Source: a virus (lineage: Duplodnaviria; Heunggongvirae; Uroviricota; Caudoviricetes). From it: 64,000 nucleotides of DNA. Position 1 is the stretch's first letter; each line of letters opens with the position of its first letter. The notes beneath the pieces were generated by a model. That model was given only the letters and a program-made list of their open reading frames with translations. It had not been told where the DNA came from and made no database searches. The stretch lies in IMG/VR virus record IMGVR_UViG_2565956624_000008; one strand, written 5' to 3'. A program made the translations under genes and the position numbers. Shown here piece by piece: positions 41,407 through 46,866 of the stretch.

Positions 41407-41985
41407 ATGTTGCGCTTTACTGAGGAAGAGTTTCAGGCTTTTAGTGAGCGTAGAAATAAGGGGCGGTCCAGGCCAAAAACCAAAAAGGATCCATTCTTAT
41501 CGCTTGCGCCGGTAAAAGAAGTTTCTCCACATGCGAAGGCACTTGCAGCACTGGCAAAGAACCCAGACCTGCGCGACGGAAATTGCGAGCACTTCGAGCA
41601 GGTTTTCATTTTTGATTACTTCGAACGCAAGCACCCTGACATCTATGAGCTGTTGCATGCAACGCCTAACGGAGGGAAACGTTCAAAAGCAACCGCCGGG
41701 AAAATGAAAGCTGAAGGGCAGAAAAAAGGTTATCCGGACATGAGTCTCGATAAAGCATGCGGTATTTATCACGGCATGCGAATTGAGCTTAAAGAACCAA
41801 ATGGTAAAGCCCCGACGAAAGAGCAGATCGCCTGGATGCGCAGGCTTAGAGAGGAAGGTTACTACGTCGTTCTTGCGTATGGTGCAGAACAAGCGATAAC
41901 CGCCATCTTGGAATACATAAGCCTTAAAAAGGGTGAGGCTATTGAGCATGTATTGAACGGCGACAAGTGGTTGTATGCTGCTTAA
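41407..41985 (+). CDS. VRR-NUC-type nuclease
   Basis: PD-(D/E)xK-like core GYPDMSL ... GMRIELKEP ... Q..W. Confidence 0.5.
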   Translation: MLRFTEEEFQAFSERRNKGRSRPKTKKDPFLSLAPVKEVSPHAKALAALAKNPDLRDGNCEHFEQVFIFDYFERKHPDIYELLHATPNGGKRSKATAGKMKAEGQKKGYPDMSLDKACGIYHGMRIELKEPNGKAPTKEQIAWMRRLREEGYYVVLAYGAEQAITAILEYISLKKGEAIEHVLNGDKWLYAA

Positions 41986-42181
41986 AATAATAAATTAATT
42001 AGTACATATGCGCCATTTGATATAGCGCACATTAACATCGGGAGAATAGTCGTGTCATCCAAGGTTAATTATGAATCGCTGGCATCGATCATGCCGCGTA
42101 ATGAACAGGAAACAGATGCTGTAGTGGACCCTGTAATCGCTGAAATGAATGCTCGCCTGGAGGCTGAATTTGCAGCTGAGA

Positions 42182-42811
42182 ATGAACATACCACCCAGGG
42201 CGACTAGGACTGTTTTTTGTGTCGGTAGCGGTCCGTCACTCACTCGTGAGGACTGTGCTGCTATAGAAAAAACTGGCTGTTCAATCATCGCGGTTAACAA
42301 TTCCTGGCAGATGTTCGATGACATTTATGCCTTATACGCCGGTGATTTGTCATGGTGGAAGCAATACGGATCCACCATACCGGGAGGGAGATTCCGCAAA
42401 GTGACAGCCAACCTGGCGGCGGCGAAATCATTTTCGTTGGAGTACAGGCGATATTGTGGACCGGCGGAAGGGGTAAATAGCGGCGCGCAGGCTATCAGTC
42501 TGGCTGCTGAATCAGGGGCTGAAGTAGTGGTATTAGTCGGCTATGACTGTTCTCTGCAAAACGGCCTTCATTGGCATGGCGCGCACCCTCAAGCACTACG
42601 GAATCCAACGCAGGTGTCTATTTCAAAATGGCAACAGCAGTTCCTGGATACCCGCAAAAAACACGCAGATTTACATATTTTGAATGCAAGTAGGAGCAGT
42701 GCAATTCAATGTTTCCCAAGAATAAATTTAGAGGCAGTGATCGCGTTATTATCGTCGGCAGTGGCCCAAGCGCCGCAAACTTTGTTGCGCCGCGCGGAGT
42801 GCCGATTATAG
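42182..42811 (+). CDS. Rossmann-like protein, paralogue 1 (GSGPS motif)
   Basis: VFCVGSGPSLT N-terminus and VVLVGYDCS; paralogous to the next ORF. Confidence 0.35.
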   Translation: MNIPPRATRTVFCVGSGPSLTREDCAAIEKTGCSIIAVNNSWQMFDDIYALYAGDLSWWKQYGSTIPGGRFRKVTANLAAAKSFSLEYRRYCGPAEGVNSGAQAISLAAESGAEVVVLVGYDCSLQNGLHWHGAHPQALRNPTQVSISKWQQQFLDTRKKHADLHILNASRSSAIQCFPRINLEAVIALLSSAVAQAPQTLLRRAECRL

Positions 42812-43335
42812 CGGTCAATGGGGCCATCGACTGGCTTAACCGCGCTTCTTATTTTTTCACCCTTGATCCATCCCCAGACAATATGCGGCGCGTTGGTCGT
42901 GGCCGCCGTCGCCGTGGTGTTTGTTATTGCATGGCACTACCCGATGTTAAAGAACGTGAAGTCAGAGATGGCGTTCTGTGCTTCCGTCGTGTGGCTGAAC
43001 GCGGCATGGAGCCAAAAAATACGAATTCTCCCGAGTGGTGGGCGTGGCGCTGGTCCGCACATTTCGGCCTTTGCGAAGATGAGAATGAAATTGCCAGCGG
43101 CAATAGTGCATATGGTGCTCTGAACCTGGCTTTCCATATCGGATTCAAACATGTAGCTCTGGTGGGCGTTGACGCTACGCAAGAACTACGCGTTCACTCC
43201 GGCGGCACGCCAAAAAATCTAAGTCACCTGCCTTTGTTATTCCAGTCTGCGCGTGAACAGATTGACGTTGTTTCATGCGGGAAAATGGGAGGTATTCCGC
43301 AGATGACTCTTAAAGAATGGCTGAAGAATACATGA
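42709..43335 (+). CDS. Rossmann-like protein, paralogue 2 (GSGPS motif)
   Basis: [13 protein letters not shown] ... IIAVNGA; overlaps paralogue 1 by about 100 bp in another frame. Confidence 0.35.
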
Positions 43336-44009
43336 TGGCACCCACAATTTATCACCGTATCGACGGTACCAAATACAGGAATGTCTGGGTTGTTGGTGAT
43401 CTGCATGGTTGCTACACCAGACTGATGTCCGAACTCCATCGTGTGGATTTTGACCCGGCGCAGGATTTACTGATATCGGTCGGCGACCTTATCGATCGCG
43501 GTACTGAAAATGTCGAATGTCTGGAACTATTGCAGATGCCCTGGTTCAGGGCAGTGATGGGGAACCATGAGCGGCTGATGATTGATGCGTTAAGTCCAGA
43601 TGGCAACGTGAATAACTGGCTAATGAATGGCGGACAATGGTTCTTCATGCTGGACACTGATCAGGAAATATTAGCCTGGGCGCTGGTGGAGCTGGTAAAG
43701 CGTCTGCCCTATATCATTGAGTTGAACACGGGGCAAGAAACTATCGTTATAGCCCATGCCGACTATCCGGATAATGAATACCAATTCGGTAAGGAGGTGC
43801 CGCTTTTCAACGTTGTCTGGGCGCGCGAGCGTATCAGTGATTCGATGGATGATATTGGTGGCGAAATTTCGGGCGCAGATCGTTTTATCTTTGGTCACAC
43901 TCCGGTGAAAAGCCCGAAGACATTCTGGAATCAGCAGTATATCGACACTGGTGCCGTATTTTGCGGAAACCTGACATTGATGAAAGTGAAAGGTGATGGT
44001 GCAGCATGA
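43317..44009 (+). CDS. ppp: Ser/Thr protein phosphatase (calcineurin-like metallophosphoesterase)
   Basis: Motifs [20 protein letters not shown]. Confidence 0.7.
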
Positions 44010-44707
44010 AGATTGCTTTAGTTTTTCGCTCTGGTGGTGACTATAACGCTTCCGATGTGCAGTGGCTGGTTAATCAACTGCCAAAAGGCTATGAAATTAT
44101 TTGCCTGACAGACCTGAAGCGTTTACATGTACCTGGCGTCAAAGTTGTCCCATTGATCAACCAGTGGCAAAAGTGCCGTGGCTGGTGGGCGAAAATCGAG
44201 TTGTTCCGACCGGATATAACCGATGATCTGTTCTATCTGGATTTGGACACGGTTATTGCCGGTGATATACGCCCAATCCTAGAGCATCCACCAACCAGCT
44301 TCACCATGCTTAGGGATTTTTACCATCCACAATATCGTGGCAGCGGTGCCCTGTGGATACCAAATAGTGTTAAAGCGCATATCTGGAGTTCATTCTGGCA
44401 AGATCCGGAAGGTTGGATTTCTCGTTGTGTCACTACTGAGTGCTGGGGGGACCAGGGGTTCTTACGAAAGGTTATGGGCGATGATACACCAGCATTTCAG
44501 GATCTGTATCCAGGATGGTTTGTAAGTTACAAGGCCGATGTTGTGGAACCTGGTTCAAAATATGCGAGCGCGCGTTACTCCAGGGGGAATGGGGCATTAC
44601 CAAAAGACTGCCGAATAATCTTTTTCCACGGCAAACCGCGACCTCGCGAAGTGTCAGAGGATTGGCTTCCCCTTATCAGCTCATTTTTTGATCGAGAATC
44701 AGAATAA
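44006..44707 (+). CDS. Putative GT-A-like glycosyltransferase (tentative)
   Basis: YLDLDTVI (DxD-type) motif; 233 aa; weak assignment. Confidence 0.3.
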
Positions 44708-44776
44708 TATTGCTCTAATAATTCCATATTTTTAAAACGTGATGTACACTCATCACGTTTTTTATTAGAGCAATCT
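44707..44776. promoter_or_regulatory. Inverted pair of C1 operator-like sites flanking a hairpin
   Basis: ATTGCTCTAATAATTCC on plus, ATTGCTCTAATAAAAAA on minus, around hairpin AAACGTGATG...CATCACGTTT. Confidence 0.55.
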
Positions 44777-46343: not shown

Positions 46344-46850
46344 TTGAGTATTTTCAATAAACACGCACACCAGGAACGTCCGTACATCGTCATAGTAGAT
46401 ATTGATGGGACGATATCAGAGGCAACGGAAGACAGGCTGCATTTACTTCCACCACCTGGCAAAGGTGCATTAACAGAGCACTGGAACGAGTTTAACCTTG
46501 CCTGTGACACTGATGCTCCCATCACTCCAGTTATTGATATGGTGCGCCAGTTGTCCGGCATTTACACCCTCTGGTTTGTAACCGGGCGCTGTGAGATAGC
46601 CAGGGATAAAACACGAGCCTGGTTGCGTAAGCACGTAACAAATGGGGCGGAGCCTTTGCTATCTATGCGTCCTGCCACCGATGACAGAAATGACGGTCCA
46701 GCAAAGATTGATCTCCTGAAGAAAATTGGTCTAAGTAAAATTGCGTTCGCGCTGGAAGATAAGATTGAAGTGGCGCGTGTTTTCAGGAGTCACGGCGTAC
46801 TTACGTTAATGGTCAGGGAGTATGAAAACGCGCTTCTCCATCAACAATAA
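46344..46850 (+). CDS. HAD-superfamily phosphatase (P1 pap position)
   Basis: N-terminal VIVDIDGTI (DxDGT) motif. Confidence 0.5.
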   Translation: MSIFNKHAHQERPYIVIVDIDGTISEATEDRLHLLPPPGKGALTEHWNEFNLACDTDAPITPVIDMVRQLSGIYTLWFVTGRCEIARDKTRAWLRKHVTNGAEPLLSMRPATDDRNDGPAKIDLLKKIGLSKIAFALEDKIEVARVFRSHGVLTLMVREYENALLHQQ

Positions 46851-46866
46851 TTGCTCTAATAAATCT
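46850..46866 (+). promoter_or_regulatory. C1 operator-like site overlapping the preceding stop codon
   Basis: ATTGCTCTAATAAATCT. Confidence 0.6.

What the first reader, a model, noticed from the sequence alone, without database searches (positions are those of the whole stretch)
42052..44707. Cluster of two paralogous Rossmann-like proteins, a Ser/Thr phosphatase and a DxD-motif protein
Two overlapping paralogues with N-terminal V.VGSGPS (dinucleotide-binding-like) motifs are followed by a calcineurin-like phosphatase (GDLHG, GDLIDRG, GNHE) and a 233-aa protein with a YLDLDTVI DxD-type motif that could be a GT-A glycosyltransferase. The genes are translationally coupled and end at a C1 operator pair. 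Together with the GT-B-like ORF after ban (35240-36214), this could be a DNA or surface-glycan modification module. It could equally be backbone genes of unknown function (the phosphatase corresponds to P1 ppp by position).
Basis: inference. Interest (0 to 1): 0.45.

Follow-up and report, generated by a model that had tools for sequence, protein, structure and literature searches.

The report
Phage P1 three-enzyme glycosylation cassette
This stretch is the already-annotated pmgN-pmgO-pmgP-ppp-pmgQ operon of phage P1; its core is a trio of sugar-transferring enzymes that travels as a unit among phages of Gram-negative bacteria, usually inside their head or late genes, so it probably decorates a phage protein with sugars, though nobody has tested this.

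Summary

- **Ppp** is a lambda-type phosphatase. It is an unrelated insertion, since phage D6 carries ppp alone and other phages carry O-P-Q without it.
- **O-P-Q is a mobile cassette.** It occurs in unrelated phages and prophages of diderm bacteria, once as an O-P fusion. It usually sits directly after the major capsid gene or beside the lysis genes, often with methyltransferases, and in some chromosomes beside Ig-like adhesins.

The best reading (about 0.4) is a late-expressed protein glycosylation system, probably acting on the virion and possibly using host CMP-Kdo. LPS-core remodelling is the main rival. DNA glycosylation is unlikely. P1 knockouts show no plaque or antirestriction defect. 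The genes are known; the cassette concept and its role are untested.

The parts
41960..41988 (+). sigma-70 promoter-like site upstream of pmgN, close to the annotated P1 PpmgN
   Evidence: The consensus scan finds GCGACA-17-TAAAAT. P1 annotates PpmgN at 79396-79422, which maps to window 41953-41979.
41992..42008 (-). C1 operator Oppp (Op83), as annotated in P1
   Evidence: Mapped from the P1 annotation 79435-79451. It is a poor consensus match and was not found at up to 3 mismatches.
42052..42207 (+). pmgN, a 51-aa acidic protein of unknown function
   Evidence: ORF; P1 pmgN; phrog_2350 at E 7e-38. No homologue was found next to the cassette outside P1-like phages.
42149..42811 (+). pmgO, an MptE-like (Maf / GT42 / WaaZ-fold) glycosyltransferase-type protein. 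The conserved domain starts near residue 19, and an alternative start exists at 42182.
42709..43335 (+). pmgP, a distant paralogue of pmgO from the same superfamily, overlapping pmgO by 103 nt in the -1 frame
   Evidence: hhalign against the PmgO family gives 98.1% probability, E 8.4e-14. Pfam MptE-like at E 3.4e-4. phrog_2111 at E 3e-132. There are 328 homologue clusters. A natural PmgO-PmgP fusion, P0092, exists.
43317..44009 (+). ppp, a lambda-PP / NinI-type Ser/Thr metallophosphatase, inserted into the cassette in the P1 lineage
   Evidence: Pfam Metallophos at E 9e-16. phrog_246 NinI-like at E 5e-113. NCBIfam PphA model scores 272 bits, below the 326 cutoff. ppp is absent from O-P-Q cassettes elsewhere, and phage D6 has ppp without O/P/Q.
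44006..44707 (+). pmgQ, a GT8-like retaining GT-A glycosyltransferase (DxD at D79/D81, invariant H208)
44709..44725 (+). C1 operator OpmgRa
   Evidence: ATTGCTCTAATAATTCC; P1 annotation.
44734..44761 (+). hairpin followed by a U-run, terminator-like, closing the operon
   Evidence: 11-bp stem, dG -13.4 kcal/mol, z -5.65. Sequence. The simple terminator scan did not list it.
44758..44774 (-). C1 operator OpmgRb
   Evidence: ATTGCTCTAATAAAAAA on the - strand; P1 annotation.
35216..36214 (+). dbn, a possible GT-B glycosyltransferase that may work with the cassette
   Evidence: Sub-threshold Glycos_transf_1 match at E 1e-4. A homologue 39% identical over 319 aa lies 3 kb from PmgQ-PmgP in Buttiauxella prophage L103. 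This is a single instance only.

Best explanation
**What it is.** The region is the C1-repressed pmgN-pmgO-pmgP-ppp-pmgQ operon of a P1-type phage. Its functional core is a mobile three-enzyme glycosylation cassette.
- PmgO and PmgP are two distantly paralogous small enzymes of the MptE-like superfamily. This is the fold of Maf flagellin glycosyltransferases, GT42 sialyltransferases and the Kdo-III transferase WaaZ, all of which use CMP-activated ulosonic or nonulosonic acids.
- PmgQ is a GT8-like retaining hexosyltransferase.
- Ppp is a lambda-type protein phosphatase that merely landed inside the cassette in the P1 lineage.

**Inferred mechanism.** During lytic development the three cytoplasmic enzymes build a short glycan on a protein acceptor, most plausibly a virion (head) protein. 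PmgO, the most constant member, would start it, PmgP would act as its partner, and PmgQ would add an alpha-linked hexose from a UDP-sugar. Because the cassette carries no sugar-biosynthesis genes and is found only in diderm hosts, the acidic sugar is most likely host CMP-Kdo.

**Shown:** gene identity, folds, paralogy, cassette conservation and late/structural genomic context.
**Inferred:** catalytic activity, donor sugars, the order of action and the acceptor.
For: - **Identity:**
- **Functional linkage:** a natural PmgO-PmgP fusion is followed by a PmgQ homologue. O-P-Q lie adjacent in a Citrobacter lambdoid prophage and a Pseudomonas HK97-like prophage. In a one-genome-per-species scan, PmgP and PmgQ co-occur in 15 of 16 loci with enough flank, and O+P+Q in 11. 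The hosts span Alpha-, Beta- and Gammaproteobacteria, Bacteroidota and Gemmatimonadota.
- **Context, head genes:** the cassette lies directly after the major capsid or cement gene, and in several cases is packed against the head-completion genes, overlapping them in L007 and the ENA contig. This holds in L006, L099, L107, L108, L007, L101 and an ENA contig. SAM methyltransferases and a cupin often accompany it.
- **Context, lysis genes:** it lies next to the lysis cassette in L002, L004, L005, L103 and L109.
- **Context, chromosomes:** it lies beside Big_1 Ig-like inverse-autotransporter adhesins in five Enterobacteriaceae species, and Big_1 proteins follow PmgO in Serratia.
- **Nearest solved relatives** build glycans on proteins: Maf on flagellin, Gat1 on Skp1, GlyE on PsrP, and glycogenin on itself.
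- **Precedent:** Maf enzymes expressed in E. coli use CMP-Kdo to O-glycosylate Ser/Thr (bioRxiv 10.1101/2020.06.03.131540).
- **Phenotype:** P1 knockouts have no plaque defect (PMC9024508; PMC10695390), as expected for a decorative modification.
Against: - No glycan has ever been reported on P1 virions. The P1 virion proteomics paper does not mention glycosylation.
- PmgO, PmgP and PmgQ each have homologues among LPS-core enzymes (WaaZ; WaaJ/O-type GT8), so the LPS reading is not excluded.
- Five contexts sit beside lysis genes rather than head genes, and moron insertion sites could explain the positions.
- The window proteins fall below the Pfam thresholds for MptE-like and GT8.
- Capsid proteins encoded next to the cassette show no obvious Ser/Thr-rich tail.
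- The apparent restriction to diderm hosts may reflect search bias.
Confidence: 0.4

Rival explanations
1. LPS-core (receptor) remodelling. The cassette would act on nascent lipid A-core at the inner membrane late in infection. A WaaZ-like Kdo addition by PmgO/PmgP plus a WaaJ/WaaO-like hexose addition by PmgQ would alter or truncate the core that P1 uses as receptor. This would limit superinfection or the loss of progeny on cell debris.
For: - WaaZ belongs to the same MptE-like superfamily.
- 11 of 65 PmgO/P-family members give weak WaaZ_KDO_III matches, the best at E 2.9e-4, and a faint precomputed WaaZ_KDO_III Pfam hit is recorded on the fusion protein.
- All hosts found have LPS.
- Several cassettes sit next to lysis genes.
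- That P1 adsorbs to the LPS core is my own knowledge.
Against: - None of the 18 genomic loci examined lies in a waa cluster.
- Seven phage contexts place the cassette inside head-gene clusters, packed against head genes and in some cases overlapping them. An envelope function does not explain this.
- The chromosomal copies flank adhesin genes.
- NCBIfam WaaZ scores are far below cutoff (11.9 and 20.3 bits against 200).
- Late expression leaves little time to replace surface LPS.
Confidence: 0.25
2. Glycosylation of some other acceptor. This could be a non-virion phage or host protein, such as an adhesin, a defence protein or an assembly factor, or a small molecule or lipid carrier.
For: - PmgO is adjacent to Big_1 adhesin genes in Serratia and Pseudescherichia.
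- PmgO, PmgP and PmgQ are absent from the P1 virion proteome, as expected for enzymes acting in the cytoplasm.
- The fold data do not specify an acceptor.
Against: The dominant phage context is the head module. No conserved non-structural partner gene was seen across contexts.
Confidence: 0.2
3. PmgO and PmgP are not glycosyltransferases. They would be pyrophosphokinase-type enzymes, like archaeal MptE (HPPK) or thiamine pyrophosphokinase, acting on a small metabolite, perhaps together with the phosphatases Ppp and Pap.
Against: - The best fold match is a glycosyltransferase (Maf).
- The sequence-level matches are to Cst-II, WaaZ and PseD, not to kinases.
- PmgO/P near-obligately co-occur with a GT8-like enzyme and, in other phages, with further GT-like genes and sugar-tailoring-type methyltransferases.
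- Ppp and Pap are absent from the cassette elsewhere.
Confidence: 0.07
4. DNA glycosylation. The enzymes would attach sugars to bases of phage DNA to evade restriction.
For: Phages do use glycosyltransferases on DNA (for example bioRxiv 10.1101/2023.12.21.572611, listed). The cassette is expressed during lytic growth.
Against: - Single-gene P1 knockouts showed no change in antirestriction (PMC9024508).
- No hydroxymethyl-pyrimidine pathway accompanies the cassette in any context examined.
- Chromosomal copies sit beside adhesins, and phage copies sit inside head-gene clusters.
- The closest structures act on proteins or LOS.
- That P1 DNA is routinely cut and cloned is my own knowledge.
Confidence: 0.03

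Closest known systems
Maf (motility-associated factor) flagellin nonulosonic-acid glycosyltransferases (Pfam PF01973 MptE-like / DUF115; PDB 5mu5)
   Different: Maf proteins are about 600 aa with flanking substrate-binding domains, while PmgO and PmgP are bare 180-220-aa catalytic domains occurring as a paralogous pair. Identity is 16%. The acceptor is unknown, and the window proteins score below the Pfam threshold.
GT42 sialyltransferases Cst-I/Cst-II of Campylobacter jejuni
   Different: Profile E-values are only about 0.1. The hosts (E. coli K-12 and others) make no CMP-sialic acid, so the name is almost certainly wrong as to donor. Equivalence to the catalytic His could not be tested.
WaaZ, Kdo-III transferase of the E. 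coli K-12/R2 LPS core (NCBIfam TIGR04437)
   Same: WaaZ is also a sub-threshold MptE-like protein (E 6.9e-7). Weak N-terminal matches occur in 11 of 65 family members. It uses CMP-Kdo, the one CMP-sugar that all the hosts have.
   Different: Scores are far below the equivalog cutoff, and hhalign to WaaZ gives only 13-19% probability. The cassette is never found in waa clusters in the loci examined.
GT8 retaining glycosyltransferases (glycogenin, LgtC, GlyE, Gat1, WaaJ/WaaO)
   Different: Identity is 13-17%. There is no Pfam Glyco_transf_8 hit for the P1 protein. PmgQ is shorter (233 aa) and forms a distinct family with its own invariant W60-W61-x-K63, S174 and K176.
Mycobacteriophage virion glycosylation (Freeman et al. 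2023, cited in PMC12691614 and PMC12582341)
   Same: Phage-encoded glycosyltransferases acting on virion proteins and dispensable for plaque formation. In the cassette-bearing phages found here, GT and methyltransferase genes sit among the structural genes.
   Different: The enzyme families and hosts differ (Actinobacteria versus diderm bacteria). For P1, no glycan has been demonstrated.
Lambda protein phosphatase (lambda-PP / NinI) and E. coli PphA/PphB
   Same: Ppp has all the metallophosphatase motifs. The P1 annotation gives 64% identity to lambda-PP. phrog_246 matches at E 5e-113.
   Different: Ppp sits inside a glycosyltransferase cassette rather than in a nin region, and it shows no conserved linkage with the cassette.

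Membership tests
Pfam PF01973 MptE-like (DUF115) superfamily: PmgO, PmgP | Score at or above the Pfam gathering threshold (34.6 bits) | tested here: not met
   PmgO scores 23.4 bits and PmgP 20.9 bits. The homologous fusion P0092 passes at 44.6 bits, and 64 of 65 family members match at E <= 1.
Pfam PF01973 MptE-like (DUF115) superfamily: PmgO, PmgP | Modified GT-A / sialyltransferase-like fold of the Maf central domain | tested here: met
CAZy GT42 (Cst-I/Cst-II sialyltransferases) | Significant sequence similarity to GT42 members | tested here: not met
   The PmgO family profile against PDB Cst-II chains gives E 0.12-0.5, although both nucleotide-binding motifs align.
CAZy GT42 (Cst-I/Cst-II sialyltransferases) | Catalytic His general base and phosphate-binding Tyr residues in equivalent positions; CMP-Neu5Ac donor | not testable with these tools
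   No residue-level structural superposition was available. PmgO has invariant H141 and H143 after the G-Y-D motif, but their equivalence is unproven.
WaaZ Kdo-III transferase (NCBIfam TIGR04437 equivalog) | Score at or above the equivalog cutoff (200 bits) | tested here: not met
   PmgP scores 11.9 bits. The best family member scores 20.3 bits. hhalign to E. coli WaaZ gives 13-19% probability.
CAZy GT8 / Pfam PF01501 Glyco_transf_8: PmgQ | GT-A fold closest to GT8 structures | tested here: met
CAZy GT8 / Pfam PF01501 Glyco_transf_8: PmgQ | DxD metal/nucleotide motif and a C-terminal His motif | tested here: met
   D79, L80, D81 and T82 are invariant, as are H208, G209, P211 and P213, across 32 homologues. 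Both motif regions lie within the profile alignment to 6mw5, where the DxD region lines up.
CAZy GT8 / Pfam PF01501 Glyco_transf_8: PmgQ | Pfam gathering threshold (24.3 bits) | tested here: not met
   There is no Pfam hit for the window protein. The Citrobacter homologue scores 11 bits, E 0.31. The family profile does hit a solved GT8 at E 3.2e-6.
Calcineurin-like metallophosphatase, lambda-PP type: Ppp | Pfam Metallophos threshold and the GDxHG / GDxxDRG / GNHE motifs | tested here: met
   59.3 bits against a 21.5-bit cutoff. The motifs are read in the translation. phrog_246 NinI-like matches at E 5e-113.
Phage virion glycosylation system | Glycosyltransferase genes embedded in, and co-oriented with, structural (head/tail) genes | tested here: met
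   This holds for homologous cassettes in L006, L007, L099, L101, L107, L108 and an ENA contig. In P1 the operon lies between the tail/baseplate genes and pmgR/pmgS.
Phage virion glycosylation system | Glycan demonstrated on virion proteins and dependent on the phage glycosyltransferases | not testable with these tools
   This requires mass spectrometry or glycostaining of virions. The P1 virion proteome paper does not address it.
Phage DNA glycosylation system | Accompanying base-hypermodification pathway and a restriction-protection phenotype | tested here: not met
   No such genes lie next to the cassette in any context examined. The knockouts show no antirestriction change (PMC9024508).

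The most novel reading that the evidence does not exclude
P1 and many other phages of Gram-negative bacteria O-glycosylate their own virion proteins. They would use a PmgO/PmgP pair that hijacks host CMP-Kdo, followed by the PmgQ hexosyltransferase. This would be the first virion glycosylation system in phages of diderm bacteria and the first natural Ser/Thr-O-Kdo protein modification. In some lineages the O-P pair may be made as a fusion, either by gene fusion or by -1 frameshifting in the conserved overlap.
Probability: 0.2. Interest if true: 0.8.

Novelty: new member of a known kind. Interest (0 to 1): 0.45.

Why it matters
P1 is one of the most used phages in genetics, yet this operon still carries the placeholder label "putative morphogenetic function". 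If the cassette glycosylates virion proteins, four things would follow.
- Virion glycosylation, so far documented for mycobacteriophages and some giant viruses, would extend to phages of Gram-negative bacteria.
- A compact, donor-promiscuous protein-glycosylation toolkit that works in E. coli would become available.
- It would bear on phage immunogenicity and stability in therapy.
- It would explain a widespread set of small, uncharacterised MptE-like phage proteins.

If the cassette instead remodels LPS late in infection, it would be a new kind of receptor-masking function. Either outcome can be tested directly with the existing P1 knockout library.

Tried and rejected
- **Single-sequence PDB searches** of PmgO and PmgQ gave nothing significant. 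Family profiles were needed.
- **First hhalign of the PmgO and PmgP alignments** was contaminated by the fusion protein. It was repeated without the fusion.
- **Combined alignment to model the fusion protein** failed, because MAFFT stacked the PmgO homologues on the PmgP domain. The fusion and PmgP were therefore not modelled.
- **AFDB fold library** was unavailable, so WaaZ could not be ranked structurally.
- **hhalign to single WaaZ and WaaJ sequences** was weak.
- **Viral-contig scan with the PmgP profile** returned only P1-like contigs, giving no diversity. The genome scan and the encoding-contig look-ups gave the diversity instead.
- **Papers not held:** the P1 genome paper and Freeman et al. 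2023.
- **Literature searches** found no study of this cassette.
- **Ser/Thr-rich tails** on neighbouring capsid proteins as candidate acceptor sites: none were obvious.
- **GC composition** shows no foreign island.
- **Programmed -1 frameshift joining PmgO to PmgP:** considered, but the slippery heptamers are not conserved in all lineages. It is kept only as a side note.
Full report
**1. What is there**

The window is a P1-type phage. Region 42052-44707 is 99.3% identical over its full length to P1 NC_005856 79495-82150 and 98-99.8% identical to 18 other P1-like records. The P1 annotation places five genes here: pmgN, pmgO, pmgP, ppp and pmgQ.

Gene overlaps are 59 nt (pmgN/pmgO), 103 nt (pmgO/pmgP), 19 nt (pmgP/ppp) and 4 nt (ppp/pmgQ, ATGA). 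Downstream lie two C1 operators, at 44709-44725 (+) and 44758-44774 (-). The window holds 14 operator-like sites against 0.26 expected by chance. Between the two operators is an 11-bp hairpin with a U-run (dG -13.4 kcal/mol, z -5.65). Upstream, P1 annotates a weak C1 operator (Oppp) and a sigma-70 promoter, with a late promoter further up before pmgL. The operon is therefore repressed in the lysogen and expressed during lytic growth. Base composition is unremarkable.

**2. The proteins**

*Ppp.* This is a standard lambda-PP/NinI-type metallophosphatase: Pfam Metallophos E 9e-16, phrog_246 E 5e-113, and just below the NCBIfam PphA equivalog cutoff.

*PmgO and PmgP.*
- By BLASTP they share only the N-terminal G-S-G-P-S motif (E 0.003).
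- Alignments of their homologues match each other at hhalign probability 98.1%, E 8.4e-14, over 162 columns. They are real but old paralogues.
- They are not FAD/NAD-type Rossmann proteins. Both give sub-threshold Pfam MptE-like (DUF115) matches. Among family members, 64 of 65 match that family, and one passes threshold.
- The AlphaFold model of PmgO has pLDDT 86.4. The first 20 residues are low-confidence, which suggests the annotated start may be too far upstream.
- The PmgO profile aligns weakly with Cst-II at both nucleotide-binding motifs.
- E. coli WaaZ, the Kdo-III transferase, is itself a sub-threshold MptE-like protein (E 6.9e-7). In addition, 11 of 65 family members give weak WaaZ hits.

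*PmgQ.*
- It has no Pfam hit, but its family profile finds solved GT8 enzymes: 6mw5 at E 3.2e-6 and 5gvv at E 0.0024.
- D79-L-D81 and H208 are invariant in 32 homologues.
PmgQ is a divergent GT8-like retaining transferase.

**3. The unit is O-P-Q, not the five genes**

- *Fusion.* A 376-aa protein (P0092) is a natural PmgO-PmgP fusion. It lies in an unrelated phage with an SU10-type portal, directly after the lysis cassette. It is followed by a PmgQ homologue (hhalign E 1.6e-51) and a fourth GT-A-like gene.
- *Citrobacter rodentium lambdoid prophage.* O, P and Q are adjacent between the lysis genes and the terminase. The pmgO/pmgP overlap is again about 100 nt.
- *Pseudomonas HK97-like prophage.* The order is capsid, O, P, Q, then a fourth GT-A-like gene homologous to the one in the fusion phage (E 3e-27), then the head-closure genes.
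- *Species-level scan.* A scan of one genome per species found 18 loci in Enterobacterales, Zhongshania, Microbulbifer, Methylophilaceae, Brevundimonas, Sinomicrobium (Bacteroidota) and Longimicrobiales (Gemmatimonadota). PmgQ accompanies PmgP in 15 of 16 loci with enough flank, and all three genes are present in 11.
- *Ppp travels separately.* Ppp, PmgN, PmgR, PmgS and Pap appear only in the P1-like locus. Phage D6 has ppp in a nin-like region without O/P/Q. Ppp is therefore an insertion into the cassette.
- *Second cassette variant.* Another arrangement keeps PmgO and replaces P/Q with a GT9-like protein, another GxGPS protein and a methyltransferase (L007, L109 and a JGI contig). PmgO is thus the most constant member.

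**4. Where the cassette sits**

| Context | Loci |
|---|---|
| Inside the head module, directly after the major capsid or cement gene, packed against (in L007 and the ENA contig overlapping) the head-completion genes | L006, L099, L107, L108, L007, L101, an ENA contig |
| Beside the lysis genes | L002, L004, L005, L103, L109 |
| Chromosomal, interleaved with Big_1 Ig-like proteins | L093-L097; Serratia L005 |

- The gene order in L099 is TerL, portal, S78 protease, capsid, O, P, methyltransferase, Q.
- The gene order in L107 is capsid, cement protein, O, cupin, methyltransferase, P, Q.
- In P1 the operon lies between the tail/baseplate genes and pmgR/pmgS.
- In five Enterobacteriaceae species the genes are interleaved with a 1166-aa inverse autotransporter and other Big_1 Ig-like proteins. 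In Serratia, two Big_1 proteins follow PmgO.
- None of the loci examined is an LPS waa cluster.

**5. Published phenotypes**

Single-gene P1 knockouts of pmg and upf genes had no plaquing defect and no change in antirestriction. [quoted passage not shown] CRISPRi scored pmgO, pmgP, ppp and pmgQ as nonessential. It scored pmgN as essential, in conflict with the deletion survey (PMC10695390). No paper found discusses the function of these genes.

**6. Interpretation**

*Shown:* three glycosyltransferase-fold proteins form a conserved mobile cassette. It is expressed with late or structural genes in phages of diderm bacteria.

*Inferred:* the cassette builds a short glycan on a protein, most plausibly a virion (head) protein.

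*Arguments for this reading:*
- The position inside head-gene clusters, packed against or overlapping the head genes.
- The accompanying methyltransferase and cupin genes, which resemble sugar-tailoring enzymes.
- The adhesin-linked chromosomal copies.
- The nearest solved relatives all extend glycans on proteins: Maf on flagellin, Gat1 on Skp1, GlyE on PsrP, and glycogenin on itself.
- The lack of a plaque phenotype.

*Donor sugar.* The cassette carries no sugar-biosynthesis genes, and every host found has LPS. The acidic sugar is therefore most likely host CMP-Kdo. Maf enzymes expressed in E. coli do transfer Kdo to Ser/Thr (bioRxiv 10.1101/2020.06.03.131540).

*Precedent.* Natural capsid glycosylation by phage enzymes is established for mycobacteriophages (Freeman et al. 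2023, as cited in PMC12691614 and PMC12582341).

*Main rival.* The main rival is remodelling of the LPS core, which is P1's own receptor. PmgO/P resemble WaaZ, and PmgQ resembles the WaaJ/WaaO-type GT8 enzymes. This reading explains the restriction to diderm hosts equally well, but not the head-module context or the adhesin neighbours.

*Minor rivals.* A pyrophosphokinase role for PmgO/P is possible from fold alone. It fits poorly with the obligate GT8 partner. DNA glycosylation is unlikely (section 5; no base-modification genes accompany the cassette).

**7. Novelty and verdict**

The genes are long known, and RefSeq already labels pmgO "alpha-2,3-sialyltransferase" and pmgQ "glycosyltransferase". 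The sialyltransferase name is probably wrong as to donor.

What appears to be undescribed:
- the O-P-Q cassette as a unit, including its fusion form;
- its wide distribution;
- its head-module context.

The functional claim is a hypothesis that can be tested directly with the existing P1 knockouts.

- Interest: moderate (0.45).
- Novelty: new member of a known kind.
- Most novel reading not excluded: Kdo-based virion glycosylation in a classic coliphage, probability about 0.2.

Noticed in passing
window 42709-42811 (pmgO/pmgP overlap), heptamer A_AAT_TTA at 42724-42730: pmgP lies in the -1 frame relative to pmgO in 7 of 8 O-to-P junctions examined, and the overlap is about 100-200 nt in 6 of them. 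In-frame XXXYYYZ heptamers occur in 4 of those 6: A_AAT_TTA here and T_TTA_AAC in the Pantoea P1-like locus L091. A -1 frameshift here would produce a PmgO-PmgP fusion like the natural fusion P0092. The heptamers are not conserved in L004 or L092, so this may be chance.
   Followed up: partly
L002 9962-11131 (protein P0092): A natural PmgO-PmgP fusion protein of 376 aa lies in an unrelated phage, directly after the holin/endolysin/spanin genes. It is followed by a PmgQ homologue and a fourth GT-A-like gene with a weak Nucleotid_trans match.
   Followed up: yes
L093-L097 (Pseudescherichia / Enterobacteriaceae chromosomes) and L005 8001-10442 (Serratia): PmgO, PmgP and PmgQ homologues are interleaved with a 1166-aa inverse-autotransporter (intimin/invasin-like) gene and other Big_1 Ig-like proteins. 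This suggests that Ig-like surface proteins may be acceptors.
   Followed up: partly
window 42052-42207 (pmgN): CRISPRi knockdown of pmgN lowered plating to 1.4e-2, yet the pmgN deletion is viable (PMC10695390). All the downstream genes are nonessential, so polarity does not explain the discrepancy.
   Followed up: no
window 42149-42207: The first 20 residues of the annotated PmgO are low-confidence in the model and are not covered by the PHROG family or most homologues. An in-frame ATG at 42182 would give a 209-aa protein with a shorter overlap on pmgN.
   Followed up: partly
window 35216-36214 (dbn) and L103 10509-11498: P1 Dbn gives a weak GT-B match. It has a homologue 39% identical over 319 aa in a Buttiauxella prophage, 3 kb from PmgQ-PmgP-lysozyme-spanin. 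This is the only hint that Dbn belongs with the cassette.
   Followed up: partly
window 46344-46850 (pap), 41407-41985 (pmgM), 41159-41404 (pmgL): Pap matches the HAD phosphatase domain of polynucleotide kinase-phosphatase (E 3e-11). PmgM is a sub-threshold VRR-NUC nuclease. PmgL has a weak treble-clef zinc-finger match. None of these co-occurs with the cassette outside P1-like phages.
   Followed up: no
L007 3170-4132; L107 3068-3424 and 4037-5331; L099 7570-8139: Cassette-bearing phages carry a collagen-repeat protein, a head cement protein, a cupin and SAM methyltransferases right beside the glycosyltransferase genes. These are possible acceptors and sugar-tailoring enzymes.
   Followed up: no
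window, 14 sites (for example 30651-30667 and 46850-46866): Fourteen matches to the 17-bp C1 operator consensus at up to 3 mismatches occur in the window, against 0.26 expected by chance. This marks the dispersed C1 regulon of P1.
   Followed up: no
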